Source: Phycisphaerae bacterium (lineage in GTDB: Bacteria; Planctomycetota; Phycisphaerae; UBA1845). Taken from it: 37,775 bases of DNA. Where the stretch lies: positions 1-37,775 of the forward strand of contig JBMYUM010000002.1 in NCBI GenBank assembly GCA_049605375.1, written 5' to 3'. A program made the translations under genes and the position numbers. This document shows positions 19,816 to 35,900 of the stretch, piece by piece. Each line of letters begins with the position of its first letter. Within the stretch, counting starts at the first letter, position 1. A model generated the notes under the pieces. The model did no database searches. It had not been told where the DNA came from and saw nothing but the letters and a program-made list of their open reading frames with translations.

Positions 19816-20622
19816 TTACTTACCGCAGTAGTCGATGATTCGAGCAATTTCACGTCGAAGATCGGCACGATGAACGATTCGATCGACAAAGCCATGTTTC
19901 AGCATGAACTCCGCAGTCTGAAACCCTTCCGGCAACTCGGCATTGATCGTGTTGGCAATGACGCGGGGTCCGGCAAAGCCGATCATGGATCCGGGCTCAG
20001 CAAGGATGATGTCACCAAGACTTGCAAAACTGGCAGCCACACCGGCTGTGGTCGGGTCGGTGGCAACCACAATATATAGACCACCGGCATCGTCGAGCCG
20101 CGCCAGAGCAGCAGATGTCTTCGCCATTTGAACCAGCGACACCATCCCCTCCTGCATGCGCGCACCGCCTGATGCCGTCACCAGGACCAAGGGAAGATTG
20201 TCCTCGATTGCCTGTTCAATTGCGCGCGTCACCTTTTCACCGACAACCGCACCCATGGATGCCATAATGAACGCAGGGTTCATCACACCGACCACGACGG
20301 GGCGCCCGCGTACAAACGCCTTCCCAACCACGATCGCATCGTGCTCGCCCGTTTTCTCCTGGATCTTGGCGAGGCGCTCCTTGTACGGAACACGATCACG
20401 GAAATTCAACGGGTCGATGGATCGCAGATCGTGTGCAAACTCTTCAAACGAATCGGGATCGCACAACTGCTGAATTCTCGTGCGCGCATTGACGCGGCGA
20501 TGGTGCCCGCATTCGGGGCATACGTGCAGGGCTTCCTCGACCTCTTTCTCATATACCATGTGGCCGCAGGCGTCGCAGCGTGTCCAAAGACCGGCAGGTA
20601 CGTCAATTCGTTCTTGCGACAT
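19816..20622 (-). CDS. accD: Acetyl-CoA carboxylase carboxyltransferase beta subunit
   Basis: N-terminal C4 zinc ribbon [26 protein letters not shown], plus GGARMQEG and the carboxyltransferase core. The ORF-track start at 20847 overlaps the upstream gene. The ATG at 20622 ([13 protein letters not shown]) lies 5 nt after that gene's stop. Confidence 0.93.
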
Positions 20623-20626
20623 AACA

Positions 20627-21295
20627 TTACTCACTTTCCGTACTCTCCTGATTTGCCGAAGCCCCCACGGTACCGATTTCAAGAATGGATTCAAATGACC
20701 AGGCGCCGTTATGTGCGGTTTTCTGATCTTCACCTTCGCGGACGCGATAGATGACGGGGCCGGCTGCATCGGCCAGCTCGGGAACCGGGGACTGCTCGTC
20801 CTCGACGATTCGCCGCACCAGGCGAAACGCCAGCGGCCCCAGGACAACCGCAGGCAACTGGCCGTCCGCCTTGCTGATAATCGTCTCGATCGCCTGCATC
20901 AGCCGGCTGCCCGCTTCATGCAGGTCCTCGCCTTCCGGTGGACAGATGCCCAGCGGCTCTTCGCGCCAGCGCTTGTAGACTTTCGGGTATCGCCGCGAAA
21001 ATTCGTCAGCCGTCAGCCCCTGCCACAATCCCACATCAATTTCTTCCAACTCCGAAACCACGCGTCGCTTCGCCTGATGGAACTCTGCAATGATCTGCGA
21101 GGTCTCATCAGAGGCTTGTTCGCTGCTCGCCGCCACGTGTGTCGGCTTGTGCACGCCCATTTCCTGGGCCCAGGTCAGCGTCGCGCGACGACCATCAGCC
21201 GTCAACGAAAGAGGTGTTCTTCCCGCGAGCCGACCACCGGCACTCCAGGGTGTGGCTCCCCAGGGAACCAATATGAGATATTTCGGATCAAGCAT
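20627..21295 (-). CDS. Histidine-phosphatase-superfamily (PGM-like) protein with degenerate catalytic motifs
   Basis: The fold-level pattern is conserved: [11 protein letters not shown]...[57 protein letters not shown] is replaced by PWG, the second Arg by Ser, and the C-terminal SHG by LGP. I prefer the ATG at 21295 over the TTG at 21313. Confidence 0.65.
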
Positions 21296-21309
21296 GCTCT
21301 TCTCGGATC

Positions 21310-22044
21310 TCAAGCCTCAGGGATCGCAAAGTTGGCGTGGCGTCGCGCAAGGCTGTCAAGTTCTTGAAAGGCCGCAACAGGATCTTCGCGACCAAAAACT
21401 GCGGTTCCCGCGACAAACATATCAGCCCCGGCTTCGGATGCCGCCGCGATCGTCGTCGCATCGATTCCGCCGTCGATCTCCAGCCGTTGATGCGTCGCCA
21501 GCCGTTGCGACAAGTCAACCACTTTCGGTAGCACATCAGGGATGAACTTCTGCCCACCGAACCCCGGCCAGACACTCATGACCAGCACCAGATCCACAGC
21601 TGGAAGAATGGATTCGATCGCACTGACCGGCGTCGTCGGATTGATAGACACACCGACCGCCATTCCAAGGGATCGAATGTGGTCGACGACTTCCGCGGGC
21701 TCATCCGCAACTTCGATATGAAACGTCAGCAGGTCGCAACCGGCATCAGCAAAGTCCTTGGCATATTTCTTCGGCTCCGAAATCATCAGGTGTGTATCGA
21801 GATACATATCCGAGCACGTCTTCACATGCTTGATGATACCGGGACCGAAACTGATATTCGGTACGAAGTGACCATCCATGACGTCGAGATGCAAGGCTTC
21901 GGCACCCGCTCCCTCGATCATGGTGATTTGATCGCGCAATGTTGTGAAATCGGCAGCCAACAACGAAGGCGCGATACGAATTTGTTTTTCTGCCAGAGCA
22001 AAGTCGGTCATGGTTTCAGCGTCGCGTGTCGAATTCTCGCTCAT
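21310..22044 (-). CDS. rpe: Ribulose-phosphate 3-epimerase
   Basis: IAPSLLAADF, HLDVMDGHFVPN, MSVWPGFGGQKF and EIDGGI motifs. Its ATG overlaps the pgk stop (ATGA). Confidence 0.95.
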   Translation of the reverse strand: MSENSTRDAETMTDFALAEKQIRIAPSLLAADFTTLRDQITMIEGAGAEALHLDVMDGHFVPNISFGPGIIKHVKTCSDMYLDTHLMISEPKKYAKDFADAGCDLLTFHIEVADEPAEVVDHIRSLGMAVGVSINPTTPVSAIESILPAVDLVLVMSVWPGFGGQKFIPDVLPKVVDLSQRLATHQRLEIDGGIDATTIAAASEAGADMFVAGTAVFGREDPVAAFQELDSLARRHANFAIPEA

Positions 22045-23270
22045 CGATTTTCCAGAACATCCAGCGCAGCGAACGATCCGTGTTCCAGCAACTCAAGGGA
22101 TGCACCACCTCCGGTGGAAACGTGGCTCATCTTTTCATCAAGGCCCGCCTGCTCTACGGCTGCGGCGCTATCGCCGCCACCAACGACGCCAATGGCACCA
22201 CTCGAGCAAACCTCAGCCATGATTTTCGCGAGCTCATTGGTTGCGTGATCAAACGGTGGGTGCTCGAACGCGCCCATCGGCCCGTTCCAAAATACGGTTC
22301 GTGCCTTCTGCAGTACTTCGGAGAATGCCGCCAACGACGATGGGCCAATATCGAGCCCCATCAAATCGTCGGGAATGTCGCCCGCATGGACGGTCACATG
22401 ATCACCGTCACTCAAACTCGTGCTGCACGCAGAGTCTACCGGCAGAACGATCTGGTCACGATAGTCGGCCAACAACTCACGGGCTGTTTTCATCAGGTCC
22501 GGCTCAACCAGACTCCGTCCGATCTTGGCACCGTCGGCAGCCAGGAATGTGTATGCCATGGCACCGCCGATCAGGATCTTGTCACACTTCTGCAAGAGCG
22601 CCCTTGTGACCCCCAGTTTGTCTGAGACTTTCGCGCCGCCGAGAATGCACACAAAGGGGCGTTCGGGGTCGCGGGTAAGAGGACCAAGAAACGCGAGCTC
22701 TTTCTCGACAAGGAACCCGACACCACGGGGACGATCGAGCATCTGCTGGGGAACCGTCAACATACTTGCGTTGCAACGATGGCAAGTACCGAACGCATCA
22801 TTCACATAGGCATCGGCGTGAACTGAGAGCCCCTTGGCAAACGCATCCTTGCGTGCGCGCAGTTCAGGATCAGTCGCGGCTTTCTTATCCTTGATCGTCT
22901 CCTCTTCATGGAAGCGAAGATTCTCAAGAAGCAGCACACCGCCCGGCTCGACACGTGAAACGGCGTCGTCTGCCGCCGCACCAATGCACGCCGGCACAAA
23001 CGCGACCGGCTGCCCCAGCACTTCGGCCATTCGTTGCGCAACGGGCGCCAGAGACAATCGCTGCCGATCCTCATCAGTCTTGGGCCGGCCCAGGTGAGAC
23101 ATCAGGACCAACCGTGCACCGCCTTCGATCAGGTGGCGTATGGTCGGCACACATGCCGTAATTCGACGGTCATTGGTGATTGTGCCGTCGTCGCCAAGGG
23201 GCACGTTCAAGTCAAGGCGTGCCAGAACGCGCTGCCCCTTGACATCCATTTCCTTGATGGATCGTTTCAT
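22041..23270 (-). CDS. pgk: Phosphoglycerate kinase
   Basis: RLDLNVPL, SHLGRPK, GGGDSAAAV and STGGGASLELLE motifs. It starts 2 nt after the gap stop. Confidence 0.97.
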   Translation of the reverse strand: MKRSIKEMDVKGQRVLARLDLNVPLGDDGTITNDRRITACVPTIRHLIEGGARLVLMSHLGRPKTDEDRQRLSLAPVAQRMAEVLGQPVAFVPACIGAAADDAVSRVEPGGVLLLENLRFHEEETIKDKKAATDPELRARKDAFAKGLSVHADAYVNDAFGTCHRCNASMLTVPQQMLDRPRGVGFLVEKELAFLGPLTRDPERPFVCILGGAKVSDKLGVTRALLQKCDKILIGGAMAYTFLAADGAKIGRSLVEPDLMKTARELLADYRDQIVLPVDSACSTSLSDGDHVTVHAGDIPDDLMGLDIGPSSLAAFSEVLQKARTVFWNGPMGAFEHPPFDHATNELAKIMAEVCSSGAIGVVGGGDSAAAVEQAGLDEKMSHVSTGGGASLELLEHGSFAALDVLENR

Positions 23271-23272
23271 AT

Positions 23273-24358
<1,086 letters not shown>

Positions 24359-24600
24359 TTATCTGGAAGTTCCCAGGCCTCGAGCGCACGAATCGTGCCG
24401 GCAACGAGGGCCATGCGCCGTAGCTTAAACGACAGAATAAAGAAGGGCTGCCACCGCAACCCCCTCCGCATCCTGCTCGCTGAAGCTAGAATTGGTAAGG
24501 CTAAGAGTTGAGATTCGATCGGTCAAGATGCTGCAGTTGCGCCAAAGGCCGGCCGAAGATCAGATCGAAGGGTAACCGTAACGTCAGATGGGACCTCGCC

Positions 24601-25074
24601 ATGTCATTGTTCCCGGAACTCGACCGCTTTGAAGATAAGCAACAACGAATGCAGATCAGTCAGCAGGCGTGGCAACGGCAGCTGAGCCGTCCCATGTTCT
24701 GGATTGGCCTACTTCTCTATGGAGCTCTCATGGTAGTCTTCGTCTACGGCATGATGACGCAGGTCGCGCGTCGCATTCCCATCCCCACCTATCTCTACGG
24801 CGGAATCGTAGGCGGCGTGTTCGGGGGTGGATTCATGGCGTGGCTGCAGTGGTTGCTGCGAGAACCGATCCGCCGCGAACTCCGGCGGAAACTCAACGAG
24901 GAAGGCATGCCCACCTGTGTGGGCTGCGGCTACGACATGCGCGGCAGCATCGGCGGGCGTCAGCCGGAGGAACATCAATCAAGCCCAAGTGCAGAACGCC
25001 CAAGTGCCGAACGCCCAACGAATGCCGACTGCCCGGAGTGTGGTCGCAAGTCTGCTACGACCAGCCTCCGTTAG
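24601..25074 (+). CDS. Hypothetical two-TM membrane protein with C-terminal zinc-ribbon-like CxxC pairs
   Basis: ATG at 24601 (MSLFPELDRF). Two hydrophobic helices (MFWIGLLLYGALMVVFVYGMM, LYGGIVGGVFGGGFMAWLQWLL) are followed by CVGCGYDMRG ... CPECG. It contains a tandem SAERPSAERP duplication. Confidence 0.55.
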   Translation: MSLFPELDRFEDKQQRMQISQQAWQRQLSRPMFWIGLLLYGALMVVFVYGMMTQVARRIPIPTYLYGGIVGGVFGGGFMAWLQWLLREPIRRELRRKLNEEGMPTCVGCGYDMRGSIGGRQPEEHQSSPSAERPSAERPTNADCPECGRKSATTSLR

Positions 25075-25135: not shown

Positions 25136-26446
25136 CTACTCCTGGAAGCGCCGAATCACCAACGTATCGTTCTGACCGCCGAATCCAAAACTGTTGGACA
25201 AGGCAACCTCGACCTGCTTATCACGAGGCGTATTCGGAACGTAGTCCAAATCGCAGTTAGGATCGGATTCCTTGTAGTTGATGGTTGGTGGCACCTTACC
25301 ATCGCGGATGGCAAGCACGCAGGTGATCAACTCGACCGCACCGGCGGCAGCAATCAGGTGGCCGATCATGCTCTTGATGCTGCTGATCGCCAGGGAATAT
25401 GCATGCTCACCGAAGACACGCCGCACCGCCAGCGTCTCGATCTTATCGTTTTCCTCCGTTCCGGTACCATGGGCCGAAACGTAGTCGACGTCTTCCGGGC
25501 TGAGACCTGCGTCGCTCAAGGCAGACCGCATCGCCGCAATCGGACCTCTTCCCTCTTCGTGAATATCGGTGATACGAAACGCGTCAGCCGTTGAACCATA
25601 CCCCACGACTTCGGCGAGTATTTCGGCCCCGCGAGCCTTAGCATGCTCCAACTCTTCAAGAATGAGGATGCCCGCCCCCTCTCCAAGAACAAACCCATCT
25701 CGGGTCCGATCAAACGGACGGGACGCGGTCAGGCAGGAATCGTTACGCGTGGACAATGCGGTGAGGCGATTAAATCCTGTTACGCCCAACGGATGAATCA
25801 TGCTGTGCGTACCACCGGAAATCATGATGTCTGCGTCGCCGTACCGGATCAGTGCAGACGCTTCGCCAATCGCCTGCGTGCTCGCCGCACAAGCTGTTAA
25901 CGTGTTCAAGCTGGGCCCCTGTGCCTTGAATTGCACCGCCAGATGGCCCGCCGCAAGATTGGGGTCTTGTTCCAGTTCGTTGTGCGGATCAAGTCGGCGC
26001 AGCGCTTCTTCCGCCCAGCGAACGGTATTGAGGCTGTCAAAACCAGACTCACCGTGCCAGCAGCCGGACAGTGCAGCCGCCGAGAACGGATCAAAGTCCA
26101 GCGGGCCTTCGCCACCACCGAGGTAGACCCCGATTCGTGTGCGATCGATCAGACCATCCACTTCGAGACCGGCCTTCTTCCAGGCCATCGAGCACGCGGC
26201 AAGCGCAAACCTGGAATTCCGGCTTGCATGCTCATGCCGAGCGGCGTCTTGACCAAGGTAGTTCTCAAGCTTGCATTCTTTGACCTCAGACGTGAAGGTG
26301 GTCGGGAACGTCGACGCGTCAAAAAGCGTTGTCGGAGCAATCCCGCACTCACTCTTGAGCATGCGCCCCCACACTTCGTCGATACTGTCGCCCAGGGGTG
26401 TGACCCAACCGACTCCGGTGATGACTACTCGGCGGTTCATCGTCAT
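25136..26446 (-). CDS. Beta-ketoacyl-ACP synthase (FabF/KAS II-like), catalytically complete
   Basis: Cys-His-His triad present: LTACAASTQAIGEA, VSAHGTGT, SIKSMIGHLIAAAG. C-terminal NSFGFGGQN. Its ATG overlaps the stop of the upstream KS-like gene (ATGA). Confidence 0.92.
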   Translation of the reverse strand: MTMNRRVVITGVGWVTPLGDSIDEVWGRMLKSECGIAPTTLFDASTFPTTFTSEVKECKLENYLGQDAARHEHASRNSRFALAACSMAWKKAGLEVDGLIDRTRIGVYLGGGEGPLDFDPFSAAALSGCWHGESGFDSLNTVRWAEEALRRLDPHNELEQDPNLAAGHLAVQFKAQGPSLNTLTACAASTQAIGEASALIRYGDADIMISGGTHSMIHPLGVTGFNRLTALSTRNDSCLTASRPFDRTRDGFVLGEGAGILILEELEHAKARGAEILAEVVGYGSTADAFRITDIHEEGRGPIAAMRSALSDAGLSPEDVDYVSAHGTGTEENDKIETLAVRRVFGEHAYSLAISSIKSMIGHLIAAAGAVELITCVLAIRDGKVPPTINYKESDPNCDLDYVPNTPRDKQVEVALSNSFGFGGQNDTLVIRRFQE

Positions 26447-27786
26447 GAGGCCTCCTGATACTTCTTAATGACCAATGCGGCACACTGCCCACCTGCCAGA
26501 GCATAACTAGCCGAGATCGCCTGCATGACAGGTACATCCCGGGCATCTCCCTGGACAAAGTTGAAGCCACATCCATCCAACAAATCGTCCGTGTTATGTG
26601 ACACGGGAACCGTATTACGATTCAGTGCCATCGCCATGGCAGCGATGTCCAAGGCTCCCGAACCGGCGCCATTGTTTCCAAGAGCGCCACGGGTAGTCAG
26701 TGCAACCGTACTTGAGAGATTGTCGCCAAACACGTCCGTCCAGGCCTTCAATTCCGATCGATCAAAATCCGGAATGCCTGTGCCAAAGGGATTGAGAAGT
26801 TGACAGTCATCTGCGCTGGTACCTGAATCTGCGAGCGCTTTGCGAAGGGCAATAGACAAGGCCGTTCCATCATCAACGCCGGACCACGTTTGAATACTGC
26901 TGCTCGCGCCGAATCCTGCCAATTCCGCGTAAATGCGAGCACCGCGTGCTTTCGCATGCTCCAGCGATTCAAGAATGATCAAACCACCGCCTTCCGCGGC
27001 GACCGTACCCGACGCTTGACGACCAAACGGCCGACAGGCACCGGTCGGATCATCATTTGAATCTGACGATAGCCGACCACAAAGCGCAGGTCGTGCCATG
27101 GCCATCGGATTCATTTTTGATTCCGCCCCACCGCAGATGCAGACATCCGCAGCGCCGCGAGCAATCGTCCGGTAGGCTTCACCAATCGCAAGATGGCTGG
27201 ACGCTTCGGAGCATGTAATCGTATTCGATGGTGCTTGCGCATCGTGAACAATGGTGACGTGACACGCCAACATGTTGGGAAGAAACTTGAGCAGCCAGAG
27301 TGGCGTGAGATTGCTCATCCCTTCCCGCCCCCACGTCTGAATGTCAAAACGACCCGAGTCGTCAACCGCCGTGCTCAACGCCCCGGCGAGCTCTGTCAAA
27401 TCTGCACAGACAAGCCCTGCGCCAATGTTGGCGCCAAATCGCGAGCTCGCAACATTGGGGGGACCTTCAGACTCCCCACGATCAACAATGCATTTGGTCA
27501 CCAGCCCGGCGTCACGAACCGCATGATACGCCGCCACCACCGCGATCTTGATATCACGCGACATGACCTTGGCACTCTTACGGTACGACTTGGGAATGTG
27601 ATCACCAAGTTGAAACGCAGGAAGCTCACCGCCGACTTGCGAAGGCAATCCGCCGGGATCAAAACTCTCCACCCGACCAATTCCGGATTCCTTGCGAATT
27701 AGGGCGTCCCAGAACGGCTCGATGCCGATCCCGATGGGTGATGCCACACCAAGCCCGGTTATGACGACGCGTCGATCTGATGCCAT
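26443..27786 (-). CDS. Ketosynthase-like partner subunit (chain-length-factor-like), predicted catalytically inactive
   Basis: Thiolase-fold KS homolog (RRVVITGLGVASPIG ... ICGGAES ... AEGGGLIILESLEHAKARGA). Anchoring on [GA]P...IGEA, the active-site Cys aligns to Glu (APSNTITCSEASSHLAIGEA, codon 27207-27205). HGTGT becomes NPFGTG and GH becomes GN. ATG at 27786, GTG alternative at 27789. Confidence 0.85.
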   Translation of the reverse strand: MASDRRVVITGLGVASPIGIGIEPFWDALIRKESGIGRVESFDPGGLPSQVGGELPAFQLGDHIPKSYRKSAKVMSRDIKIAVVAAYHAVRDAGLVTKCIVDRGESEGPPNVASSRFGANIGAGLVCADLTELAGALSTAVDDSGRFDIQTWGREGMSNLTPLWLLKFLPNMLACHVTIVHDAQAPSNTITCSEASSHLAIGEAYRTIARGAADVCICGGAESKMNPMAMARPALCGRLSSDSNDDPTGACRPFGRQASGTVAAEGGGLIILESLEHAKARGARIYAELAGFGASSSIQTWSGVDDGTALSIALRKALADSGTSADDCQLLNPFGTGIPDFDRSELKAWTDVFGDNLSSTVALTTRGALGNNGAGSGALDIAAMAMALNRNTVPVSHNTDDLLDGCGFNFVQGDARDVPVMQAISASYALAGGQCAALVIKKYQEAS

Positions 27787-28388
27787 CACTCTATCGATGC
27801 CTCCATTTCGCCGGACTTCAGGCCGGTCGGCGACCCGGCGGGTGATCCATCATTCGCTGGACCATCTGACTTATCAGGGGGTTGAATACCACCACCGGCC
27901 GATTTATTCCCCAGATCAATTCCATGTGTTGCACGGAAATCGTCGACGAGGTGCATGAACTGATCCGTAAAGACGAAATTGTGCTCAGGCAAGCCGACCG
28001 CGTTGGCACCGTTGACATGCGAAAAAATCAAATCAATCGTGCCTGCAGGCTCTCCCTCGATCAAGACTTTTCCACTCGTGATGGCAGCCTGATCATCAAC
28101 ACTGACAATCGTCGCGTCGTACCGAATTTGTTGGCCGGGAAAGGCGTAGCGCGCCAACTCGACATGACGCAGTTTCGCCAACACGACGTTCTCGCGAAAG
28201 CCACGACTCTCTCCCACGAGGATGCCGGCCGTTTGTGCCATACCCTCGACCATCAACGTCGGTGGAAAGACCGGCCAATGGGGAAAATGGTCGTGGAGAA
28301 TCTCCTCTGCCAGCGTCACATTCTTCACGGAAGATGCCGACTGACCCGGTGAAAACGCCACCAAAGAATCGATCCAAATCCATCTCAT
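27786..28388 (-). CDS. FabZ/FabA-like (hot-dog fold) 3-hydroxyacyl-ACP dehydratase
   Basis: HDHFPHWPVFPPTLMVEGMAQTAG matches the FabZ HFPxxPVxPG...E..AQ motif, with the catalytic His and Glu present. The ATG at 28388 (MRWIWID) has GAGGAAAA upstream. The ORF-track start at 28529 is an unsupported extension. It has a low-complexity G/P/S C-terminal tail. Its stop overlaps the next start. Confidence 0.8.
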   Translation of the reverse strand: MRWIWIDSLVAFSPGQSASSVKNVTLAEEILHDHFPHWPVFPPTLMVEGMAQTAGILVGESRGFRENVVLAKLRHVELARYAFPGQQIRYDATIVSVDDQAAITSGKVLIEGEPAGTIDLIFSHVNGANAVGLPEHNFVFTDQFMHLVDDFRATHGIDLGNKSAGGGIQPPDKSDGPANDGSPAGSPTGLKSGEMEASIE

Positions 28389-28938
28389 AGCCGTCTGGTT
28401 TTCCTCTACTTGCAGACTAACGGTCGTACCGTGGCTAAGCAAGATGCGCGCCAATCCGCGCGACAACATGCCGAAGCAAACCACGAAGGGTAACATCTCC
28501 GCACCAGAACAACAAGAAACCCAGGGCACCGGTTGGGGATAATAGCGCCACCCTCAAAATCGGGGCGTCAATCGAATGAGGCACGCAACGTATTTGCTCT
28601 TCGATTGGCGCATTGTTCATGACGGCCTGAGGCACTCGGCAACAACGGGCGCGCACCGGAACTTTACAAGCAAGTTTCTGCGGGGTGTGAATTATCTATC
28701 GTTGAAAAGGCAGAAGTGTTGTGGATAGCCGAAGCTACCGACACGATTTGCCCACATGCACGAGCCTCGCGAGCCCGAATCCGCACGTGCGATCCATGAC
28801 GTCACCGCGCAGTGTTCAGCTCCTGGCGAAACACTGATCGACGCATCTGGTAATCGAGCTGGAAGAGCCTCGATACCTCCCGCCTCATGCGATTCGTACA
28901 TCGGCGAGAGCATCCTCGGTGCGAGAAGGCGCTACAGC

Positions 28939-28982
28939 ATCCAACATCGCGCTGGACGTTATCCAACATCGCGCTGGACGTT
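28939..28982. repeat. Perfect 22-nt tandem duplication in a non-coding gap
   Basis: atccaacatcgcgctggacgtt (28939-28960) is repeated exactly at 28961-28982. Each copy holds an imperfect palindrome AACATC-N6-GACGTT. Confidence 0.95.
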
Positions 28983-29087
28983 GAAGCGTGATCACACCAT
29001 CGGACGCATGATCACACGGTCGCGACCTGCCAGCCGCCGCGGGCAGGGATCAATACAACCCGTGCGCCGCGATTGCCGGTCTCGTCG

Positions 29088-29483
29088 CTATGCAGCAGCC
29101 TGAAGCTTGTTTTCCACATAGTTCACGATGGTGTTCACCGTGAACAGATCTGGCATTTTCGAAACACAAGCATCCTGCTCGAACTGGCTGAAGTCCGCAT
29201 GGGGCATGGCGGCTTTCAGTTTCTCCAGACCGGACGGCGTCATCTTGTCGCCATCGACGTAGTCTGGATTGTTCAGAATATCGTCAGGGAAGAGTTCTCC
29301 TTTGGGAATCTTGATGTCGAACGCCTTTTCCAGGCGAAACACGATGTCAAGGAAGTCAATGCTCTCAGCGCCAAGGTCTCCCTGCAGCGTCGCGCTGGGC
29401 GAAACCTCATCCTCTTCTACGCCAAGTGCATCAGTCAGCACATCGCGAACTTTTTCAAAGACGGCCTCACGGCTTGCAGCCAT
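29088..29483 (-). CDS. Acyl carrier protein with an internal ~45-aa insertion
   Basis: DLGAESIDFLDIVFRLEKAF matches the ACP DSLD-type phosphopantetheine site (Ser in ESID). The terminal LFTVNTIVNYVENKL corresponds to ACP helix IV. About 45 residues are inserted between them. The ATG at 29483 is preceded by GGAGG. Confidence 0.82.
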   Translation of the reverse strand: MAASREAVFEKVRDVLTDALGVEEDEVSPSATLQGDLGAESIDFLDIVFRLEKAFDIKIPKGELFPDDILNNPDYVDGDKMTPSGLEKLKAAMPHADFSQFEQDACVSKMPDLFTVNTIVNYVENKLQAAA

Positions 29484-29580
29484 TCCCTCTAGACCTCCAT
29501 CAACCAACCAAACTTTACTACGTCTGTCCGGTGGTCATCCCACCGCACCCGAACCGTCCATGGCTCGAATTCCATTTGTA

Positions 29581-30153
29581 TCAAGCATGCAACAGCGTCA
29601 GCCGCTGTTTCGCATGATCAATAAGCTTACGATCCAAATCCGAAAGCGAACCAATAACGTCGGCAGCATCAACGGCATTCGCCGGTTCTCCCGCTCCGTC
29701 AACGCCACCTGCCGTTGCCCCACCATCGTTGGGTGACAACACATGAGGAGACGACCGATGGAACGATGCAACCGAACCATGCCGAAGCGTGAATCGGGCC
29801 TTTACCATTTCCGCGCCGGCACAGGTCCCGCTGCCACTGAATACGCTCTCTGTATCTGAAAGAGAGCGACAAGCAATGTCCAACTCAAGCAAGTTACCCG
29901 GTTTGACAAAGCTCTTGTATGTTACGTTCTTCGCGTTCGCTAGCAAGATCACACTGACACGGAAATCGAGGGAAACACGGACCAGCCATGCCGCCGCCTC
30001 GACCATCGCTTCCAACATGAACACCCCCGGCAAAACCGGAAACGTCGGGAAGTGGTCAGCTAAGTATTCCTCCGACAGCGAGACCGCTTTGACAGCCTTT
30101 ACCCGCTTGCCGGCTTCAAGTTCTACGATGCGATCAATCAGCTCGAACTTCAT
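29581..30153 (-). CDS. Second FabZ-like (hot-dog fold) dehydratase
   Basis: LADHFPTFPVLPGVFMLEAMVEAAAW matches the FabZ motif with His and Glu present. ATG start at 30153. It has a ~60-aa non-hot-dog C-terminal tail. Confidence 0.8.
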   Translation of the reverse strand: MKFELIDRIVELEAGKRVKAVKAVSLSEEYLADHFPTFPVLPGVFMLEAMVEAAAWLVRVSLDFRVSVILLANAKNVTYKSFVKPGNLLELDIACRSLSDTESVFSGSGTCAGAEMVKARFTLRHGSVASFHRSSPHVLSPNDGGATAGGVDGAGEPANAVDAADVIGSLSDLDRKLIDHAKQRLTLLHA

Positions 30154-30337: not shown

Positions 30338-32089
30338 CTACCAGTCAAAATGGCTCGAAAGACCACCTCGAAGCGGCTTCTTACGCTTCTTGGGCACATG
30401 CGGCGTGTCTGCCTGCGGTGCGGCATCTTCCTTGATCTCGTCCATCTGACTCACCTGTCGAATAGACAACGAAATGCGACGGTTCTCACTATCGACCCCG
30501 AGAACACGGGTTTCTATTTCATCTCCGACAGAGACGACGTCGCCACATGCCCGCACACGCTTCTCAGACAACTCCGAGATGTGAATCAGACCCTCGACAC
30601 CCGTGACCAATTCCACAAACACACCGAAATCGGCCAAACGAGTGACCTTGCCCTTGATGATCGACTTCTCCTCGAAGGAAGAAAGCACATTCTCCCAGGG
30701 GTCAGCCTGAGCTTGCTTCATACTCAGGGCAATTCGCCGCCTCTTCGGCTCTACACGCATGACCGCGCAATCGACCATGTCACCAACCGTGACGGCGTCG
30801 CTGGCCTTGCGAACACGCGACCAGCCCATTTCGCTGATCGGTATCAGAGCCTCAATGCCGGTCTCAAGCTCCGCGAAGGCGCCAAAATCTGCCAGCCGAA
30901 CAACGCGTGCTTTGACCCGAGCCCCTTCCTGATAGCGGTCGCCGACACCTTCCCATGGATCGGGCAGCGCCTGCTTGAGACCGAGGGAAATGCGATTGCG
31001 CTCGAGATCAATCTTCAGAACGCGAACCTCAACCTCGTCCCCTTGCTTCACGATGTCAGCCACGTTGTCGACCATGCTGTAGCTCAGGTCACGCTTGTGA
31101 ACCAGACCATCAACGCCACCAAGATCGACAAATGCACCAAAGTCCGTCAAGTTACCCACAACACCCTTGCGAACCTGCCCCACTTCCAGACTCTCAAGCA
31201 CGCCTTGCCGCTTCTCAACACGCTCTCGCTCTAGCACTTTGCGACGGCTGACGAGGAGGTTCTTCGCACGGCGATCAATTTCCATCACGTCAACGCGAAC
31301 CTGCGCGTTGAGCAGAACAGAGATGTCTTTCATCGGGGACAAATCAGCTTGCGACGCAGGCATGAAGCCGCGCAACCCGTTCAAACTGACCTCCAGCCCG
31401 CCTTTGATCAATCCCGTCACACGGCCTTCCAAGGTGCTGCCGATTTCTACAGTATCCCACGAGGCCTTCTGCACCGCTCCCTTGATGTGGGCGTTTGCCA
31501 GACCGGAACCGTCATCGACACGGTCGATGATGGCTTCGATACTGTCACCAACCGCCGGAACGTCGTTGAACTGCGATGCCGGGATAACAGCCTGGGATTT
31601 CCCACCGAATTCGATAAAGACGTCATCCCCCGATACACCGGACACGCGGCCTGTGACCGTCGCCCCTCGAACCAGGTCACCGGCCCCTGACGCAACAGCC
31701 CCGGCTGCAGAAGCGGCCAGACCACCGCTGAGTTCTGCCAGGTCTGACGCATCCATTCCTTCCATGGCGCGCTGAACCTCTTGATCGATAGCCGTCATTT
31801 CAGATTCGGTGGAAGCCATTGGCGCAGGGTTTGCGTCGGCTTCTGCCAACACGTCCATCGGTGTCGCGGGAGTCCCGGAAGCGGGAATGCCAGGCGGCGT
31901 TGAGCCCACCCCACCCGACTCCTGCGAAGAACCGGTACCGGAATCGGCAACGGTTGGCTCAGGAACGTGGTTCGGAGCCGGCGAAGCATCGCCATGTTGG
32001 TTTGCCGTGGATTCGGATGAACCCCCAGCCGGTGTTGGATCAACAGGGGGCAGATTCCCCGTACCTTCGGTGTTCGGCGAGTCAGTCAT
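30338..32089 (-). CDS. rpsA: 30S ribosomal protein S1 with a long low-complexity N-terminal extension
   Basis: Five recognisable S1 domains: GATVTGRVSGV..., GSTLEGRVTGLIKGGLEV, GQVRKGVVGNLTDFGAFVDLGG, GARVKARVVRLADFGAFAEL, IIKGKVTRLADFGVFVEL. The ORF-track start at 32101 is TTG and the first ATG is at 32089. Other internal ATGs are possible. Confidence 0.92.
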   Translation of the reverse strand: MTDSPNTEGTGNLPPVDPTPAGGSSESTANQHGDASPAPNHVPEPTVADSGTGSSQESGGVGSTPPGIPASGTPATPMDVLAEADANPAPMASTESEMTAIDQEVQRAMEGMDASDLAELSGGLAASAAGAVASGAGDLVRGATVTGRVSGVSGDDVFIEFGGKSQAVIPASQFNDVPAVGDSIEAIIDRVDDGSGLANAHIKGAVQKASWDTVEIGSTLEGRVTGLIKGGLEVSLNGLRGFMPASQADLSPMKDISVLLNAQVRVDVMEIDRRAKNLLVSRRKVLERERVEKRQGVLESLEVGQVRKGVVGNLTDFGAFVDLGGVDGLVHKRDLSYSMVDNVADIVKQGDEVEVRVLKIDLERNRISLGLKQALPDPWEGVGDRYQEGARVKARVVRLADFGAFAELETGIEALIPISEMGWSRVRKASDAVTVGDMVDCAVMRVEPKRRRIALSMKQAQADPWENVLSSFEEKSIIKGKVTRLADFGVFVELVTGVEGLIHISELSEKRVRACGDVVSVGDEIETRVLGVDSENRRISLSIRQVSQMDEIKEDAAPQADTPHVPKKRKKPLRGGLSSHFDW

Positions 32090-32255
32090 AATAACAGTCA
32101 AACCTTACGATTATCGGGCCGTCAAGTCGACCACCGACGAAACGTGACCCGAATAAGAGATGCAATCCAGATTCTGCGACAGCCCGTGCACGACATAGAG
32201 GACCGTACACGAGATAGACGGATACGAGCTATAAACAGCCCCAGACGCCCATCAG

Positions 32256-32918: not shown

Positions 32919-32957
32919 TTGACCAGGTCGGATGAATTTGGAGAGGGAAGGGAACAG

Positions 32958-35900
32958 ATGCAAAAGCAGCACCTTTGGGCTGTAGCCGCAGTATTGTCGG
33001 CCTGCTGTCAGGCTTGGGCGGTCACGCCAATCACTATCGATTTTTCGGTGGAAGATGATGGCGTAACGCCGCTCGTCAACGGTCAAGACATCAGCACGCC
33101 GCCAGAGTTCGGTGTCTATTTCAATGTTTCTTCGACGGGCAATAACCTCGGACCGGCTATCTTCGATACCGATCCCAGTGGCCCGAACGGAAGCGGACCT
33201 GACCCTGACCTGCTCGTTGATGCCGGCAACTGCATCATGCTGCAGAGCAACTCTTCACCCACGCAAACCACCAGCGGCATCTTTGACACACCGAATGACT
33301 CGGCCGCAGGCGGAACGCTGACCTTCGATTTTGCCGCTGCCGGCGCGAATGTCCGGGTCGTCAGCATGGACGCGTTGGACCGTGATGGAAACGGTCGCGC
33401 CATCATGACACTGACGGACGGCAACGGCGCTCAGCGTGTTGTCGACATTCCGAACCAGTTCACCGGCGAAGCGCCCGGTGACCCGGGAATCGCCACCATT
33501 GATCTCGAAACGGGCAGCCCGACGGAATCCCCCAACATTCCGGGCCTCTTCACGACCGTTAACACCGACCCGGGATTCAACATTGACGATGTGGCTTCTC
33601 TGGTTGTGACATTCATCGGGTCCGGTGGTGTCAGCAACCTGACCTTCATCCCGCCGTGTGTCGTTGATGCCGATTGTGATGACGGCGTATTCTGTAATGG
33701 TGCGGAAGCCTGTGTAAGCGGCGTTTGCCAGAACGGCACGGCTCCGGATTGCGACGACAGCATCGATTGCACCGTTGACAGTTGCGACACCAACACCGAC
33801 AGCTGCCAGAATTCACCGCTTGATGACCTTTGCGACAACAACCTCTTCTGCGACGGCGTTGAAGTCTGTGACCCGAACAACGGCTGCCAGGCTGGACCGG
33901 CACCGGACTGCAACGACAGCGTGGGTTGCACCGTCGACAGCTGCAACGAAGACACGGATTCCTGCGACAATCTGCCAAGTGATGCGGCCTGTGACGACGG
34001 CGCATTCTGTAATGGTGTCGAAACATGCGACCCGAACAACGATTGTCAGGCAGGTAGTGCACCAAACTGCGATGATAGCGTCGGCTGTACGGTCGATAGC
34101 TGCAACGAAGATACCGACTCCTGCGACAACATGCCGAATGATGCCGCGTGTGACGATGGCGCATTCTGTAACGGTGTCGAAGTCTGTGATCCTGACAACG
34201 ACTGTCAGGCCGGCACTCCGCCGAACTGTGACGACAGCGTCGATTGCACCATTGACACGTGCAACGAAACGACGGACTCGTGCAACAACTCGCCCAGCGA
34301 TGCAGCTTGCGATGACGGGCTCTTCTGCAATGGCGTTGAAACCTGTGACCCGAACAACGATTGCCAGGCCGGCACCCCGCCGAACTGCGATGACGGTGTC
34401 GGCTGCACCATGGACAGTTGCAACGAAGACACCGATTCGTGCGACAACATGCCGGTTGACGCCCTGTGTGACAACGGTCAGGGTTGCGACGGCTTGGAAA
34501 CCTGTGATCCCAACAACGATTGCCAGCCGGGTACGCCGCCGAATTGTGATGACGGCATCGCCTGCACCATCGATTCATGCGACCCGGACACCGGCGAGTG
34601 CATCAATGTGCCGGATGACAGCCTTTGCAACGATGGTCTTTTCTGTAACGGCGTAGAAACCTGCAGCCCGGTCAATGGATGTGAAGCCGGCACGCCGCCG
34701 ATTTGCGACGACGGTGTCAGCTGCACCATGGACAGCTGCAACGAAGATACCGATTCATGCGACAACATGCCGAATGACGGTCTTTGCAACGACGGCGCGT
34801 TCTGCAACGGCGTCGAAACCTGTGATCCAACCAATGACTGCCAGGCCGGCACGGCTCCAGACTGCAACGACAATGTCGACTGCACGACGGATGCCTGTGA
34901 CGAGAACGCAGACACCTGCACGAACACGCCTTCAAATGCCGCCTGCGATGACAACGTAAGCTGCACCGTCGACGTCTGCGATCCAATCACGGGTTGCTCG
35001 AACTCGCCGGATGACAGCCTTTGCAACGATGGCGATTTCTGCAACGGCGTCGAAACCTGCGACCCGAACAATGATTGCCAGGCCGGCTCCGCACCAGATT
35101 GTGATGATGGCATCGCATGCACGGAAGATTCGTGCGACGAGGCCAATGACACATGCACGAGCACGCCGGTCAACGCACTCTGCGATGACGGCGTTGATTG
35201 CACCGTTGATGAATGTGTAGCTGGTCTGGGTTGTCAGAACACACCCGACGACAGCTTCTGCGCCAACGGCCTGTTCTGCGACGGGAATGAAGTTTGCGAT
35301 CCGGTCAACGATTGCCAGGACGGCACGGCACCATGCAACGAACCACTTCGATGCGATGAAGACGCCGACGAATGCGTTGATTGCCTGACCGACGGCCAAT
35401 GCGATGACGGAAACTTCTGCAACGGTATTGAAATCTGCATCGGCAGCCGTTGCATTCCGGGAACACCGCCAAATTGTGACGATGGTATCGCCTGCACCGT
35501 CGACTCCTGTAATGAAGACACGGATTCGTGTGATAACACGCCGGACGACAGCTTCTGCTCCAACAGCCTGTTCTGCGATGGTGCTGAAGTTTGCGATCCG
35601 AACAATGGATGTATTGCCGGAGCTGCACCGAATTGCGACGACGGCGTGAGCTGCACCGTCGACATTTGCAACGAGGACTCAGATTCGTGCGATAACACAC
35701 CGGACGACAGCGTTTGCTCGAACGGCCTGTTCTGTGACGGCGCCGAAGTCTGCGATCCCAACAGTGATTGCCAGCCAGGCACGCCGCCGAATTGCAACGA
35801 CGGCGTAAGCTGCACCGTCGATGCCTGCAACGAGGACACCGATTCGTGCGACAACACGCCGGATGACAGCGTTTGCTCGAACGGCAACTTCTGTGACGGT

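What the first reader, a model, noticed from the sequence alone, without database searches (positions are those of the whole stretch)
25136..30153. Compact type II PKS/FAS-like module: KS plus dead KS partner (Cys->Glu), two FabZ-like dehydratases and an atypical ACP
Seen in sequence:
- Minus-strand order is DH (30153-29581), ACP (29483-29088), a 700-nt gap, DH (28388-27786), KS-like (27786-26443) and KS (26446-25136).
- The last three genes have overlapping stop/start codons.
- The distal KS has an intact Cys-His-His triad.
- In the partner, the catalytic Cys aligns to Glu (anchored on both [GA]P and IGEA flanks), and both His are replaced (NPFGTG, GALGNNG).

Established knowledge: KS/CLF heterodimers with an inactive partner are the hallmark of type II PKS and aryl-polyene systems. 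Aryl-polyene systems also use paired hot-dog dehydratases. The classical CLF carries Gln at this position.

Inference:
- This is not the housekeeping FAS. It is a specialised elongation module, perhaps for polyene or an unusual unsaturated lipid.
- It would have to borrow KR, ER and AT functions from elsewhere, because none is in the window.
- In my experience a Glu at the CLF position is uncommon.
Basis: partly seen in the sequence, partly recalled or inferred. Interest (0 to 1): 0.7.

Follow-up and report, generated by a model that had tools for sequence, protein, structure and literature searches.

The report
Second fatty-acid-type elongation module, Planctomycetota
The five genes are real and form a conserved second fatty-acid-building module (one working and one dead condensing enzyme, two dehydratases, an oversized carrier protein) found in many planctomycete bacteria; its product is unknown, and its closest studied relative is the putative ladderane-lipid cluster of anammox bacteria.

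Summary
On the minus strand lie DH1, a 131-aa ACP, a 700-nt spacer, DH2, a KS-like protein (KSL) and KS. The last three genes have overlapping stop and start codons. KS keeps Cys-His-Lys-His. In KSL these residues are Glu-Phe-Arg-Asn.

- The module is not the housekeeping FAS. A related contig carries both plsX-fabH-fabD-fabG-acpP-fabF and this module.
- It is not an aromatic type II PKS or an aryl-polyene cluster. Both KS proteins are FabF-derived, KSL is full length, and no tailoring or export genes are conserved with it.
- Glu at the dead site is not rare. In the 108 nearest representative proteins, 64 carry Glu or Asp.

The order DH1-ACP-DH2-KSL-KS is fixed in all 50 complete loci and sits among core genes. 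The closest studied system is the anammox FabF2/FabFmut heterodimer with its own ACP and FabZ.

Most likely it is a dedicated-ACP elongation module that borrows FabD, FabG and FabI and makes a special membrane acyl chain. I speculate this is a very long hydroxy fatty acid.

Rating: new variant of a known kind, moderate interest.

The parts
29581..30153 (-). DH1: FabZ-type hot-dog dehydratase, 190 aa. The central helix is divergent (EAMVEAAAW), and a poorly conserved C-terminal tail follows residue ~130.
   Evidence: - Pfam FabA 7.4e-16. NCBIfam fabZ models score 79-81 bits, below their cut-offs of 113 and 155.
- The catalytic His34 is present in 81 of 81 orthologues. Glu48 is present in 73 of 81 (Gln in 8). 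Trp56 is present in 76 of 81.
- The best PDB matches are the anammox amxFabZ entries 8AYD, 7QV0 and 8AYB/C/I (56.6 bits, against 53 for canonical FabZ).
29088..29483 (-). Dedicated ACP of 131 aa. The Ser41 attachment site lies in DLGAESIDFLD. A conserved insertion of about 45-50 residues sits between helix II/III and helix IV.
   Evidence: - PP-binding 1e-10, covering residues 18-73 only. It falls below every NCBIfam ACP cut-off.
- Orthologues are 78-95% identical over 120 clusters. The insertion itself is conserved.
- The AF2 model has pLDDT 83. It shows the ACP four-helix core plus an extra helix at 83-92 and a hairpin.
- PDB ACPs cover only the core: TM-score 0.82-0.87 normalised to the target length but about 0.53 normalised to the query length.
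28389..29087 (.). Unusually long ACP-DH2 spacer (699 nt), with two tandem duplications: 22 nt x2 at 28939-28982 and 20 nt x2 at 28983-29022.
   Evidence: - The median spacer in 50 complete loci is 81 nt.
- There is no Rfam match at E<=1, no consensus promoter, and no Pfam hit for the 115-aa plus-strand ORF.
- The repeats were found.
- Its function is unknown. It may split the unit into two transcripts.
27786..28388 (-). DH2: FabZ-type dehydratase, 200 aa. It has a canonical-like central helix (EGMAQTAGILVG, with the tunnel Gly kept) and a low-complexity C-terminal tail.
   Evidence: - Pfam FabA 3.8e-11.
- His34 is present in 69 of 80 orthologues. Glu48 and Gly55 are each present in 80 of 80.
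- The best PDB matches are canonical FabZ.
- Its stop codon overlaps the KSL start.
26443..27789 (-). KSL: full-length FabF-fold protein with a dead active site (Glu195/Phe/Arg/Asn in place of Cys/His/Lys/His). It is the proposed CLF-like partner of KS.
   Evidence: - Alignment to E. coli FabF.
- Glu195 is invariant in 35 close orthologues and at least 90% conserved in 58 wider ones.
- The most conserved stretch is residues 162-199 (TPLWLLKFLPNMLACHVTIVHD..PSNTITCxEASSH). The C-terminal half is degenerate.
- The AF2 model hits FabF structures with target-normalised TM-scores of 0.77-0.83.
25136..26446 (-). KS: active FabF-like condensing enzyme (Cys186, His326, Lys358, His363, GFGG). It has an 18-aa insertion in the helix-loop-helix region.
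   Evidence: - NCBIfam fabF TIGR03150 scores 490.8 bits, just under the cut-off of 493.75. The PRK07314 subfamily is passed (482.6 > 387).
- Alignment to B. subtilis FabF.
- The catalytic motifs are at least 90% conserved in 49 orthologues.
- In the NJ tree it forms a clade of its own, apart from canonical Phycisphaerales FabF.
- Its start overlaps the KSL stop by 4 nt.
30338..32101 (-). rpsA (ribosomal protein S1). It is a conserved upstream neighbour in Phycisphaerae. It is context only, not a functional part.
   Evidence: tblastn finds rpsA directly upstream of DH1 in L001, L003, L004, L005, L008, L012 and L013.

Best explanation
This is a second type II fatty-acid-synthase-like elongation module that works on its own carrier protein.

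Proposed mechanism:
- KS (active) and KSL (dead) form a heterodimer. KS does the decarboxylative condensation. KSL, through its conserved helix-loop-helix and interface segment, shapes the acyl tunnel like a chain-length factor.
- The heterodimer probably also primes synthesis by decarboxylating malonyl-ACP.
- The growing chain stays on the 131-aa ACP. Its conserved insertion gives partner specificity and/or room for a long or bulky chain.
- DH2, which has a canonical-like tunnel, and DH1, which has a divergent tunnel, dehydrate the 3-hydroxyacyl intermediates.
- Malonyl transfer, keto-reduction and enoyl-reduction are borrowed from the housekeeping FabD, FabG and FabI.
- The product is a specialised acyl chain for a membrane or envelope lipid. 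It is handed on by enzymes encoded elsewhere in this genome. In some relatives these lie next door: an LpxL-type acyltransferase, or an alpha/beta-hydrolase plus a GH3-type adenylating enzyme.
- My best guess for the product class is a long or very long, possibly (omega-1)-hydroxylated, fatty acid.

Shown: gene content, the residue states, fixed synteny, paralogy with a canonical FAS in a relative, and strong purifying selection.

Inferred: the heterodimer, the borrowing of FabD/G/I, the role of the ACP insertion, and the product.
For: 1. Residues. KS keeps the full catalytic set. KSL has Glu/Phe/Arg/Asn.
2. Coupling. The DH2/KSL and KSL/KS genes overlap. All 50 complete loci have the order DH1-ACP-DH2-KSL-KS, and most truncated loci fit the same order. 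The KS and KSL trees look congruent by eye.
3. CLF-like conservation in KSL. The interface and tunnel segment 162-199 is nearly invariant, while the catalytic C-terminal half has decayed. In the anammox FabF2/FabFmut crystal structure, residues 135-139 of the dead subunit line the active subunit's tunnel. The 110-140 motif is ordered only in the heterodimer (bioRxiv 10.64898/2026.05.19.726425). The KSL monomer model has pLDDT below 50 at 122-137 and 156-194.
4. The same preprint shows that such a FabF pair is active only together, and that it decarboxylates malonyl-ACP to give acetoacetyl-ACP.
5. Not the housekeeping FAS. L075 has both systems on one contig. L022 and one search show a separate canonical acpP-fabF in Phycisphaerales.
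6. Dedicated ACP. It is 78-95% identical across the class, has a conserved insertion and has no structural precedent in the PDB.
7. A core-genome setting, with no conserved PKS tailoring or export genes, argues for a membrane lipid rather than a pigment.
8. Hand-off genes lie next to the module in relatives: a PF03279 lipid-A-type acyltransferase, and hydrolase + GH3 + DUF1571.
9. Precedent and candidate product. The rhizobial acpXL-fabZXL-fabF2XL-fabF1XL-adh-lpxXL cluster makes 27-OH-C28 (PMC11901934). Planctomycetes contain (omega-1)-OH C28-C35 fatty acids (PMC6995999). The tools gave me no gene assignment for those acids.
Against: - No experiment bears on this module. The heterodimer could not be modelled with the tools available.
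- KS scores within 3 bits of the fabF equivalog cut-off, so it could also act on ordinary acyl-ACPs.
- I could not show a canonical FabZ or FabF in the same genome as the window. The proof of paralogy comes from a relative whose KSL is about 46% identical.
- (omega-1)-Hydroxy very-long-chain acids are documented for Pirellulales and Gemmatales, not for Phycisphaerae.
- The anammox counterparts prefer short (C6-C8) chains, which argues against assuming long chains by analogy.
- Phycisphaera mikurensis has KSL-KS without DH or ACP genes nearby, so the five genes are not always one unit.
Confidence: 0.6

Rival explanations
1. The module is part of the housekeeping FAS. For example, DH1 and DH2 could be the cell's only FabZ-type dehydratases, and KS/KSL could carry bulk elongation.
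For: - KS scores 490.8 bits against a fabF cut-off of 493.75 and passes the FabF subfamily model.
- The module is universal, sits among core genes (rpsA, gap, pgk, rpe, accD) and is under strong purifying selection.
- No canonical fabZ was seen in any of the roughly 110 fetched flanks.
Against: - L075 carries a complete canonical plsX-fabH-fabD-fabG-acpP-fabF operon beside the module. That FabF scores 612.7 bits and that AcpP 115 bits.
- Canonical FabF is conserved at 72-90% identity across Phycisphaerales.
- The module's ACP, DH1 and DH2 all fall well below the equivalog cut-offs.
- A dead KS partner and a private ACP are not features of bulk FAS.
Confidence: 0.12
2. It is an oxygen-independent unsaturated-fatty-acid branch. 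One dehydratase would act as a FabA- or FabN-like dehydratase/isomerase, and KS/KSL would act as the FabB-like enzyme that elongates the cis-3 intermediate.
For: - There are two different FabZ paralogues, one with an altered central helix.
- My own knowledge: FabZ/FabF paralogue pairs do this job in Enterococcus (FabN/FabO).
- Many Phycisphaerae are anaerobes or facultative anaerobes.
- Planctomycete lipids are rich in monounsaturated acids, including omega-11 very-long-chain species (PMC6995999).
Against: - A private ACP would separate the product from PlsX/PlsC-type acyltransferases.
- Known anaerobic UFA systems use neither a dead KS partner nor a special ACP.
- Isomerase activity cannot be read from sequence.
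Confidence: 0.12
3. It is a polyene, aryl-polyene or highly reducing type II PKS secondary-metabolite cluster.
For: - The combination of KS plus dead partner, two hot-dog dehydratases and an ACP, with no enoyl reductase gene, recalls ApeO/ApeC + ApeI/ApeP (PMC8358021).
- Precomputed Pfam lists PF22818 (ApeI-like) on the dehydratases of relatives.
Against: - KS and KSL match FabF best, not PKS KS or CLF proteins.
- KSL is full length, whereas ApeC has a single thiolase half.
- The window's DH1 and DH2 hit only FabA and FabZ models, not Ape models.
- No ApeR, ApeQ, ApeH, thioesterase or export genes are conserved around the module in about 100 loci.
- A core-genome position and class-wide conservation are unlike a secondary-metabolite cluster.
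Confidence: 0.08
4. KSL is not dead. Glu195, or Cys193, would give it a catalytic role of its own, for example as a malonyl-ACP decarboxylase or an acyltransferase.
For: - Glu or Asp at this position is conserved across a very large family (46 Glu and 18 Asp of 108).
- Many relatives keep His298 and Lys328 (the 'EHKN' pattern, as in R. baltica RB4527).
- My own knowledge: Gln at this site in classical CLFs has been linked to decarboxylation.
Against: - In the window's clade both His residues and the Lys are replaced: Phe in 100 of 120, Arg in 112 of 120, Asn in 78 of 120.
- The C-terminal catalytic half is poorly conserved.
- Cys193 is kept in only 28 of the 64 Glu/Asp-type relatives.
- The anammox dead subunit has no activity on its own.
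Confidence: 0.08

Closest known systems
Anammox 'Cluster I' (KustE3603-3608): amxACP, amxFabZ, amxFabFmut + amxFabF2 heterodimer (Granatino et al., bioRxiv 10.64898/2026.05.19.726425; Dietl et al. 2023, PMC10139942)
   Same: - Same phylum.
- A FAS-like module with its own ACP and a variant FabZ.
- A catalytically dead FabF paralogue is encoded immediately upstream of an active one.
- Both KS proteins are FabF-like rather than PKS-like.
- DH1's best PDB matches are the amxFabZ structures.
   Different: - The dead site is Glu/Phe/Arg/Asn here, against Val or Thr with Asn/Glu/Cys in anammox.
- KSL scores under about 104 bits to the presumed amxFabFmut chain 9s5h_C, against 207 bits to E. coli FabF. 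It is therefore not its orthologue.
- There are two dehydratases here, not one. DH1 has Ala or Ser, not Ile, at the amxFabZ Ile69 position.
- The ACP is a 131-aa insertion type.
- The window has no phytoene-dehydrogenase-like or B12 radical SAM gene. A B12 radical SAM gene does sit inside the module in relatives L115 and L116.
- The host makes no ladderanes, as far as is known.
Rhodopirellula baltica FabF paralogues RB4527 (Glu163) and RB3714 (Asp163), listed by Rattray et al. 2009 (PMC2649909)
   Same: They are planctomycete FabF paralogues with an acidic residue in place of the active-site Cys. The RB4527 pattern Glu/His/Lys/Asn is the commonest signature among KSL's distant relatives.
   Different: - They were only tabulated in that paper. 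No partner, cluster context or function was described.
- The window's KSL has also lost His298 and Lys328.
[quoted passage not shown]
   Same: - A dedicated ACP, a FabZ paralogue and two adjacent FabF paralogues.
- The remaining FAS steps are borrowed.
- The product goes to an envelope lipid through an LpxL-family acyltransferase.
- A PF03279 gene lies directly upstream of the module in L026 and L027.
   Different: - The proteins are not orthologous. The candidate XL-type NCBIfam models score far below their cut-offs (PRK06519 at 72-74 bits against 320; PRK06501 at 318 against 629; PRK06508 at 44.7 against 83). My assignment of these models to the XL proteins is from memory.
- The rhizobial cluster has one dehydratase, not two.
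- The window has no adh or lpxXL gene.
Aryl-polyene KS/CLF and dehydratase pairs (ApeO-ApeC, ApeI-ApeP) and other highly reducing type II PKSs (Iga11-Iga12)
   Same: An active KS with an inactive partner, paired hot-dog dehydratases, ACP-bound growth of the chain, and no enoyl reductase in the cluster.
   Different: [quoted passage not shown]
- The window's proteins match FabF and FabZ better than PKS or Ape families.
- There are no adenylation, KR, thioesterase, methyltransferase or export genes.
- The module sits in a core-genome context.
Actinorhodin-type aromatic type II PKS KS-alpha/CLF
   Same: A heterodimer of an active KS and a full-length dead paralogue, encoded by adjacent, translationally coupled genes.
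   Different: - The CLF has Gln at the Cys position. Here it is Glu.
- Bit scores to act KS and CLF are 262 and 145, against 382 and 207 to FabF.
- There are no cyclase, aromatase or ketoreductase genes.

Membership tests
Housekeeping type II FAS (FabF / FabZ / AcpP) | The proteins reach NCBIfam equivalog cut-offs for fabF, fabZ and acyl_carrier. | tested here: not met
   
- KS scores 490.8 against 493.75. This is a narrow miss, and the PRK07314 subfamily is passed.
- KSL scores 270.4.
- DH1 scores 79-81 and DH2 about 71, against cut-offs of 113 and 155.
- The ACP scores 53.1 against 70.45.
Housekeeping type II FAS (FabF / FabZ / AcpP) | These are the only fabF and acpP copies in the genome. 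| tested here: not met
   - Tested in relatives, not in the window's own genome.
- L075 has canonical plsX-fabH-fabD-fabG-acpP-fabF, all above their cut-offs, plus the module on one contig.
- L022 and one search show canonical acpP-fabF in Phycisphaerales.
- Whether a canonical fabZ exists could not be tested.
Aromatic type II PKS KS/CLF | The CLF carries Gln at the KS Cys position, and KS and CLF group with PKS families. | tested here: not met
   - Glu195 is at that position.
- The best matches are FabF, not act KS or CLF.
Aromatic type II PKS KS/CLF | Cyclase, aromatase or KR tailoring genes lie in the cluster. | tested here: not met
   None is present in the window, and none is conserved in about 100 related loci.
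Aryl-polyene (APE) cluster | The ApeC-type CLF has only one thiolase half, about half the size of a KS. | tested here: not met
   - KSL is 448 aa with both Pfam KS domains.
- Its model covers the whole FabF fold.
- The ApeC description comes from PMC8358021.
Aryl-polyene (APE) cluster | An ApeI/ApeP-type dehydratase pair. | tested here: inconclusive
   - Precomputed Pfam lists PF22818 (ApeI-like) on the dehydratases of relatives.
- The window's DH1 and DH2 hit only FabA and FabZ models at E<=0.01.
Aryl-polyene (APE) cluster | Accessory genes are present: ApeR KS, ApeQ KR, ApeH adenylation, thioesterase and Lol/MMPL export. | tested here: not met
   They are absent from the window and from the conserved neighbourhoods.
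Anammox Cluster I (putative ladderane cluster) | A dead FabF paralogue is encoded directly upstream of an active one, together with a dedicated ACP and a FabZ variant. | tested here: met
   Gene order and residue states. The comparison is.
Anammox Cluster I (putative ladderane cluster) | amxFabFmut-type residues (Cys to Val/Thr) and the amxFabZ Ile69 signature. | tested here: not met
   - KSL has Glu at the Cys position.
- DH1 has Ala, Ser or Gly at the +21 position after the catalytic His, and DH2 keeps Gly.
Anammox Cluster I (putative ladderane cluster) | A phytoene-dehydrogenase-like gene and a B12 radical SAM gene lie in the cluster. | tested here: not met
   - Neither is in the window.
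- A B12-binding radical SAM gene lies between DH1 and the ACP in the distant relatives L115 and L116.
Anammox Cluster I (putative ladderane cluster) | The two FabF paralogues form an obligate heterodimer. | not testable with these tools
   - Only single-chain prediction was available.
- The indirect signs are gene overlap, strict co-occurrence, the conserved interface segment of KSL and its low monomer pLDDT there.
Rhizobial AcpXL very-long-chain fatty acid cluster | The proteins reach the NCBIfam cut-offs of the candidate XL-type models. | tested here: not met
   - PRK06519 scores 72-74 against 320. PRK06501 scores 318 against 629. PRK06508 scores 44.7 against 83.
- My assignment of these models to the XL proteins is from memory.
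Rhizobial AcpXL very-long-chain fatty acid cluster | An LpxXL-type acyltransferase and an adh gene lie adjacent to the cluster. | tested here: not met
   - Both are absent from the window.
- A PF03279 acyltransferase lies directly upstream of the module only in L026 and L027.

The most novel reading that the evidence does not exclude
This five-gene module could be the so far unassigned machinery for the (omega-1)-hydroxy C28-C35 very-long-chain fatty acids of planctomycetes. In that reading, the Glu/Asp-type dead KS acts as a chain-length factor inside a fatty-acid pathway, and the insertion-bearing ACP shields the very long chain. The module would also be the widespread ancestral scaffold from which the anammox 'ladderane' Cluster I was derived by adding radical SAM and desaturase-like genes. 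That would weaken the published view that the FAS-like core of Cluster I is exclusive to ladderane producers.
Probability: 0.2. Interest if true: 0.75.

Novelty: new variant of a known kind. Interest (0 to 1): 0.55.

Why it matters
- Until a 2026 preprint on anammox bacteria, chain-length-factor-type KS heterodimers were thought to belong to polyketide synthesis. That preprint calls its case the first CLF in a fatty-acid pathway.
- The module described here shows that FabF-derived active/dead pairs, with their own ACP and dehydratases, are widespread in non-anammox Planctomycetota. I found more than 570 metagenome hits to the ACP and thousands of KSL homologues. They sit in core-genome positions beside a normal FAS.
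- This gives lipid biochemists a cultivable entry point, since Phycisphaera mikurensis carries KSL-KS. No ladderane-producing organism is genetically accessible.
- It offers a candidate gene set for unexplained planctomycete lipids.
- It places the putative ladderane cluster in an evolutionary context.

Tried and rejected
- Showing a canonical FabF in the same complete genome as the module. I tried matching contig lengths (5,251,558 for CP070827; 3,803,225 for P. mikurensis) among the top 120 canonical FabF hits. There was no match, so same-genome proof rests on contig L075.
- Looking for a canonical fabZ in all fetched flanks. Only DH1 and DH2 were found, so the question stays open.
- Looking for a specific NCBIfam name for ten Glu/Asp-type relatives. 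None reached a cut-off.
- Searching the library for PDB code 9S5H. Nothing relevant came up. I infer, from the May 2026 preprint, that entry 9s5h is the Brocadia heterodimer. This is not confirmed.
- Scanning the 700-nt spacer for RNA families, promoters and terminators. Nothing came up beyond chance.
- A 120-sequence MAFFT alignment shifted the KS Cys by one column, onto Gly or Ala. I rejected this as an alignment artefact. HMMER and the gapless anchored alignment both put Glu on Cys.
- Heterodimer modelling was not possible.
- The cispentacin AmcB/E/F/G analogy was rejected. The scores (AmcF 228 and 134, AmcE 47.5 and 34, AmcB 26 bits) are far below the cut-offs and lower than the FabF and FabZ scores.

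Full report
**1. Observation**

The window is a 57% G+C stretch from a member of the Phycisphaerae (Planctomycetota). The best genome match, L001, is a Phycisphaerae MAG with 74-78% amino-acid identity.

On the minus strand, downstream of rpsA, lie these genes:

| Gene | Coordinates | Length |
|---|---|---|
| DH1 | 30153-29581 | 190 aa |
| ACP | 29483-29088 | 131 aa |
| spacer | 29087-28389 | 699 nt |
| DH2 | 28388-27786 | 200 aa |
| KSL | 27789-26443 | 448 aa |
| KS | 26446-25136 | 436 aa |

They are followed by gap, pgk, rpe, a histidine phosphatase and accD. Pfam and NCBIfam confirm the domain assignments. The DH2/KSL and KSL/KS junctions overlap.

HMMER alignment to E. coli FabF places KSL Glu195 on Cys163, Phe on His303, Arg on Lys335 and Asn on His340. 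A gapless alignment anchored on PS and IGEA agrees. KS keeps Cys186, His326, Lys358, His363 and the GFGG gate. No reductase, acyltransferase or malonyltransferase is encoded anywhere in the window.

**2. How common and how conserved**

- KSL has thousands of homologues. The best 120 clusters are 63-85% identical and are labelled Phycisphaerae, Phycisphaerales or Planctomycetes.
- Thirteen GTDB genomes carry rpsA-DH1-ACP-DH2-KSL-KS, or truncated parts of it.
- A metagenome scan with an alignment of the ACP found more than 572 loci.
- Of about 106 related loci, all 50 complete ones have the order DH1-ACP-DH2-KSL-KS. Almost all truncated ones fit it. The exceptions are a short contig, L106, where a frameshifted KS precedes DH1-ACP, and two Phycisphaera mikurensis assemblies where KSL-KS stands without DH or ACP genes nearby.
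- The flanks are housekeeping genes and differ by lineage. Phycisphaerae have rpsA upstream. Another lineage has what look like serS, SPFH-family, ABC-transporter and comEC genes; I assigned these from sequence appearance only.

The module thus behaves as a core-genome unit, not as a mobile secondary-metabolite island.

**3. Not the housekeeping FAS**

Contig L075 (81.8 kb) carries plsX-fabH-fabD-fabG-acpP-fabF. All six are above their NCBIfam cut-offs: FabF 612.7 bits, AcpP 115, FabG 309, FabD 301. The five-gene module lies 7.7 kb away on the same contig.

A Phycisphaeraceae MAG (L022) has a canonical acpP-fabF pair. That FabF type is conserved at 72-90% identity through the Phycisphaerales.

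In a neighbour-joining tree the module's KS forms its own clade, apart from these canonical FabFs. KSL groups with the Glu/Asp-type proteins (no bootstrap).

The module's ACP, DH1 and DH2 are well below the equivalog cut-offs. KS misses the fabF cut-off by 3 bits.

Two things remain untested. I could not show a canonical FabZ in these genomes. I also could not show that the window's own genome has the canonical set.

**4. What the parts look like**

*KSL.* It is a full-length FabF fold (target-normalised TM-scores 0.77-0.83 to FabF structures). Its conservation is concentrated in residues 162-199 (TPLWLLKFLPNMLACHVTIVHD..PSNTITCxEASSH). Its C-terminal catalytic half has drifted. In the monomer model, 122-137 and 156-194 have pLDDT below 50.

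In the anammox FabF2/FabFmut structure the equivalent 110-140 helix-loop-helix is disordered in the dead subunit alone and ordered in the heterodimer. Residues 135-139 of the dead subunit line the active subunit's acyl tunnel. Both KS and KSL carry 14-18-residue insertions in this motif.

This pattern is what a chain-length-factor-like partner should show. The heterodimer itself is inferred.

*Glu195.* It is invariant among close orthologues. Among the 108 nearest 50%-identity representatives, 46 have Glu, 18 Asp, 9 Cys and 4 Gln, so an acidic residue is the rule in this family. The Cys two residues upstream is kept in only 28 of the 64 acidic-type relatives and is unlikely to be a hidden nucleophile.

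*Dehydratases.* Both keep the FabZ His/Glu pair. DH2 keeps the canonical central helix, including the tunnel glycine (80 of 80). DH1 has Ala or Ser there, followed by a conserved Trp (76 of 81). DH1's best PDB matches are the anammox amxFabZ structures, by a small margin.

*ACP.* It keeps the phosphopantetheine serine and has a conserved insertion of about 45-50 residues. The model (pLDDT 83) shows the usual four-helix core plus an extra helix and a hairpin. No solved ACP covers the insertion. Orthologues are 78-95% identical, more conserved than any of the enzymes.

**5. Accessory genes in relatives**

- L026 and L027 have a lipid-A-type (PF03279) acyltransferase directly upstream.
- Several lineages have an alpha/beta-hydrolase, a GH3-family adenylating enzyme and DUF1571 directly downstream.
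- L115 and L116 add a B12-binding radical SAM gene between DH1 and the ACP, and two methyltransferases.
- L031, L075 and L082 have a class I/II aminotransferase upstream.

These neighbours suggest that the acyl-ACP product is tailored, released and attached to something in lineage-specific ways. None of them is in the window.

**6. Comparison with known systems**

| System | Verdict |
|---|---|
| Anammox Cluster I (PMC10139942) | Closest functional analogue. The dead FabFmut is encoded just upstream of FabF2. The two proteins are active only together. They decarboxylate malonyl-amxACP, and the dead subunit influences chain-length preference. |
| R. baltica Glu163/Asp163 FabF paralogues (Rattray et al. 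2009) | Same residue type, but no function, partner or context was given. |
| Rhizobial acpXL-lpxXL cluster | Convergent precedent for a private ACP plus FabZ plus two FabFs feeding an envelope lipid. |
| Aryl-polyene and aromatic type II PKS | Resemble the module only at the level of 'KS plus dead partner'. The membership tests fail on Gln versus Glu, half-size ApeC, best hits to FabF and missing tailoring genes. |

The window's module is not orthologous to Cluster I. KSL is far closer to FabF than to the presumed FabFmut chain. The dead-site residues differ. There are two dehydratases. The ACP is of a different type. The desaturase-like and radical SAM genes are missing.

**7. Mechanism and product**

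I commit to a dedicated-ACP elongation module. A KS/KSL heterodimer primes and elongates. DH1 and DH2 dehydrate. FabD, FabG and FabI are borrowed. The product goes to a membrane or envelope lipid. My confidence in this is about 0.6.

The product class is a guess. Planctomycetes of other orders contain (omega-1)-hydroxy C28-C35 fatty acids. This is the same class that the rhizobial AcpXL system makes. An enlarged ACP and enlarged KS interface loops would fit long chains. Against this, such acids are not documented for Phycisphaerae, and the anammox homologues prefer short chains.

The rivals are a housekeeping role, an anaerobic unsaturated-fatty-acid branch, a polyene product, and a catalytically active KSL. 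They are scored separately in the report.

**8. Verdict**

The finding is real and is not an artefact. It is not a one-off curiosity of this window. It is a member of a large, unnamed and uncharacterised family. I rate it as a new variant of a known kind (FabF-type KS/CLF-like modules with a private ACP). Interest is moderate to good for lipid biochemists and for the ladderane question.

Noticed in passing
window 28389-29087: The ACP-DH2 spacer is 699 nt here, against a median of 81 nt in 50 related loci. It holds two perfect or near-perfect tandem duplications (22 nt x2 at 28939-28982; 20 nt x2 at 28983-29022). It has no Rfam match and no recognisable ORF. It could be an insertion scar or an internal regulatory region.
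   Followed up: partly
window 32919-37148 (+): A 1409-aa protein is built of dozens of Cys-rich DxCNxxxxC-type repeats. It ends in VPTVSEWGLVILALLL..., which matches the IPTL-CTERM sorting domain (TIGR04174, 28.2 bits against a cut-off of 20.5). Similar giant proteins flank the module in L001, L003 and L013 (cluster c43).
   Followed up: partly
L115 7646-8959 and L116 5539-6852: In a distant relative of the module, a B12-binding radical SAM gene sits between DH1 and the ACP. An alpha/beta-hydrolase, a GH3-family enzyme, two methyltransferases and DUF1571 follow KS. This recalls the radical SAM content of the anammox ladderane cluster.
   Followed up: partly
L112 12784-17127; also L045, L049, L068, L082, L108: A trio of alpha/beta-hydrolase, GH3-family adenylating enzyme and often DUF1571 recurs directly downstream of KS. 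It suggests release of the product and its re-activation or amidation in those lineages.
   Followed up: partly
L028 (Phycisphaera mikurensis NBRC 102666, AP012338.1, 337510-358808): The cultured type species has KSL (Glu/Phe/Lys/Asn) and KS side by side. There is no DH1, ACP or DH2 within 10 kb. A 300-aa ORF without any Pfam hit lies upstream.
   Followed up: partly
window 26443-27789 (KSL model, residues 122-137 and 156-194): The most conserved segment of KSL is the least confidently modelled part of the monomer (pLDDT below 50). This parallels the disorder of the same motif in the anammox dead subunit when it lacks its partner. It could equally be an effect of the shallow alignment of 35 sequences.
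   Followed up: no
window 19816-24313: accD (acetyl-CoA carboxylase carboxyltransferase beta) lies 4.3 kb downstream of KS on the same strand. It is separated from KS by gap, pgk, rpe and a histidine phosphatase, plus a 188-aa plus-strand ORF (24508-25074). This neighbourhood is not conserved in the related loci.
   Followed up: no
L106 1-1681: On a short metagenome contig, a frameshifted KS gene lies directly upstream of DH1-ACP. This is either a rotated gene order or a decaying copy of the module.
   Followed up: no
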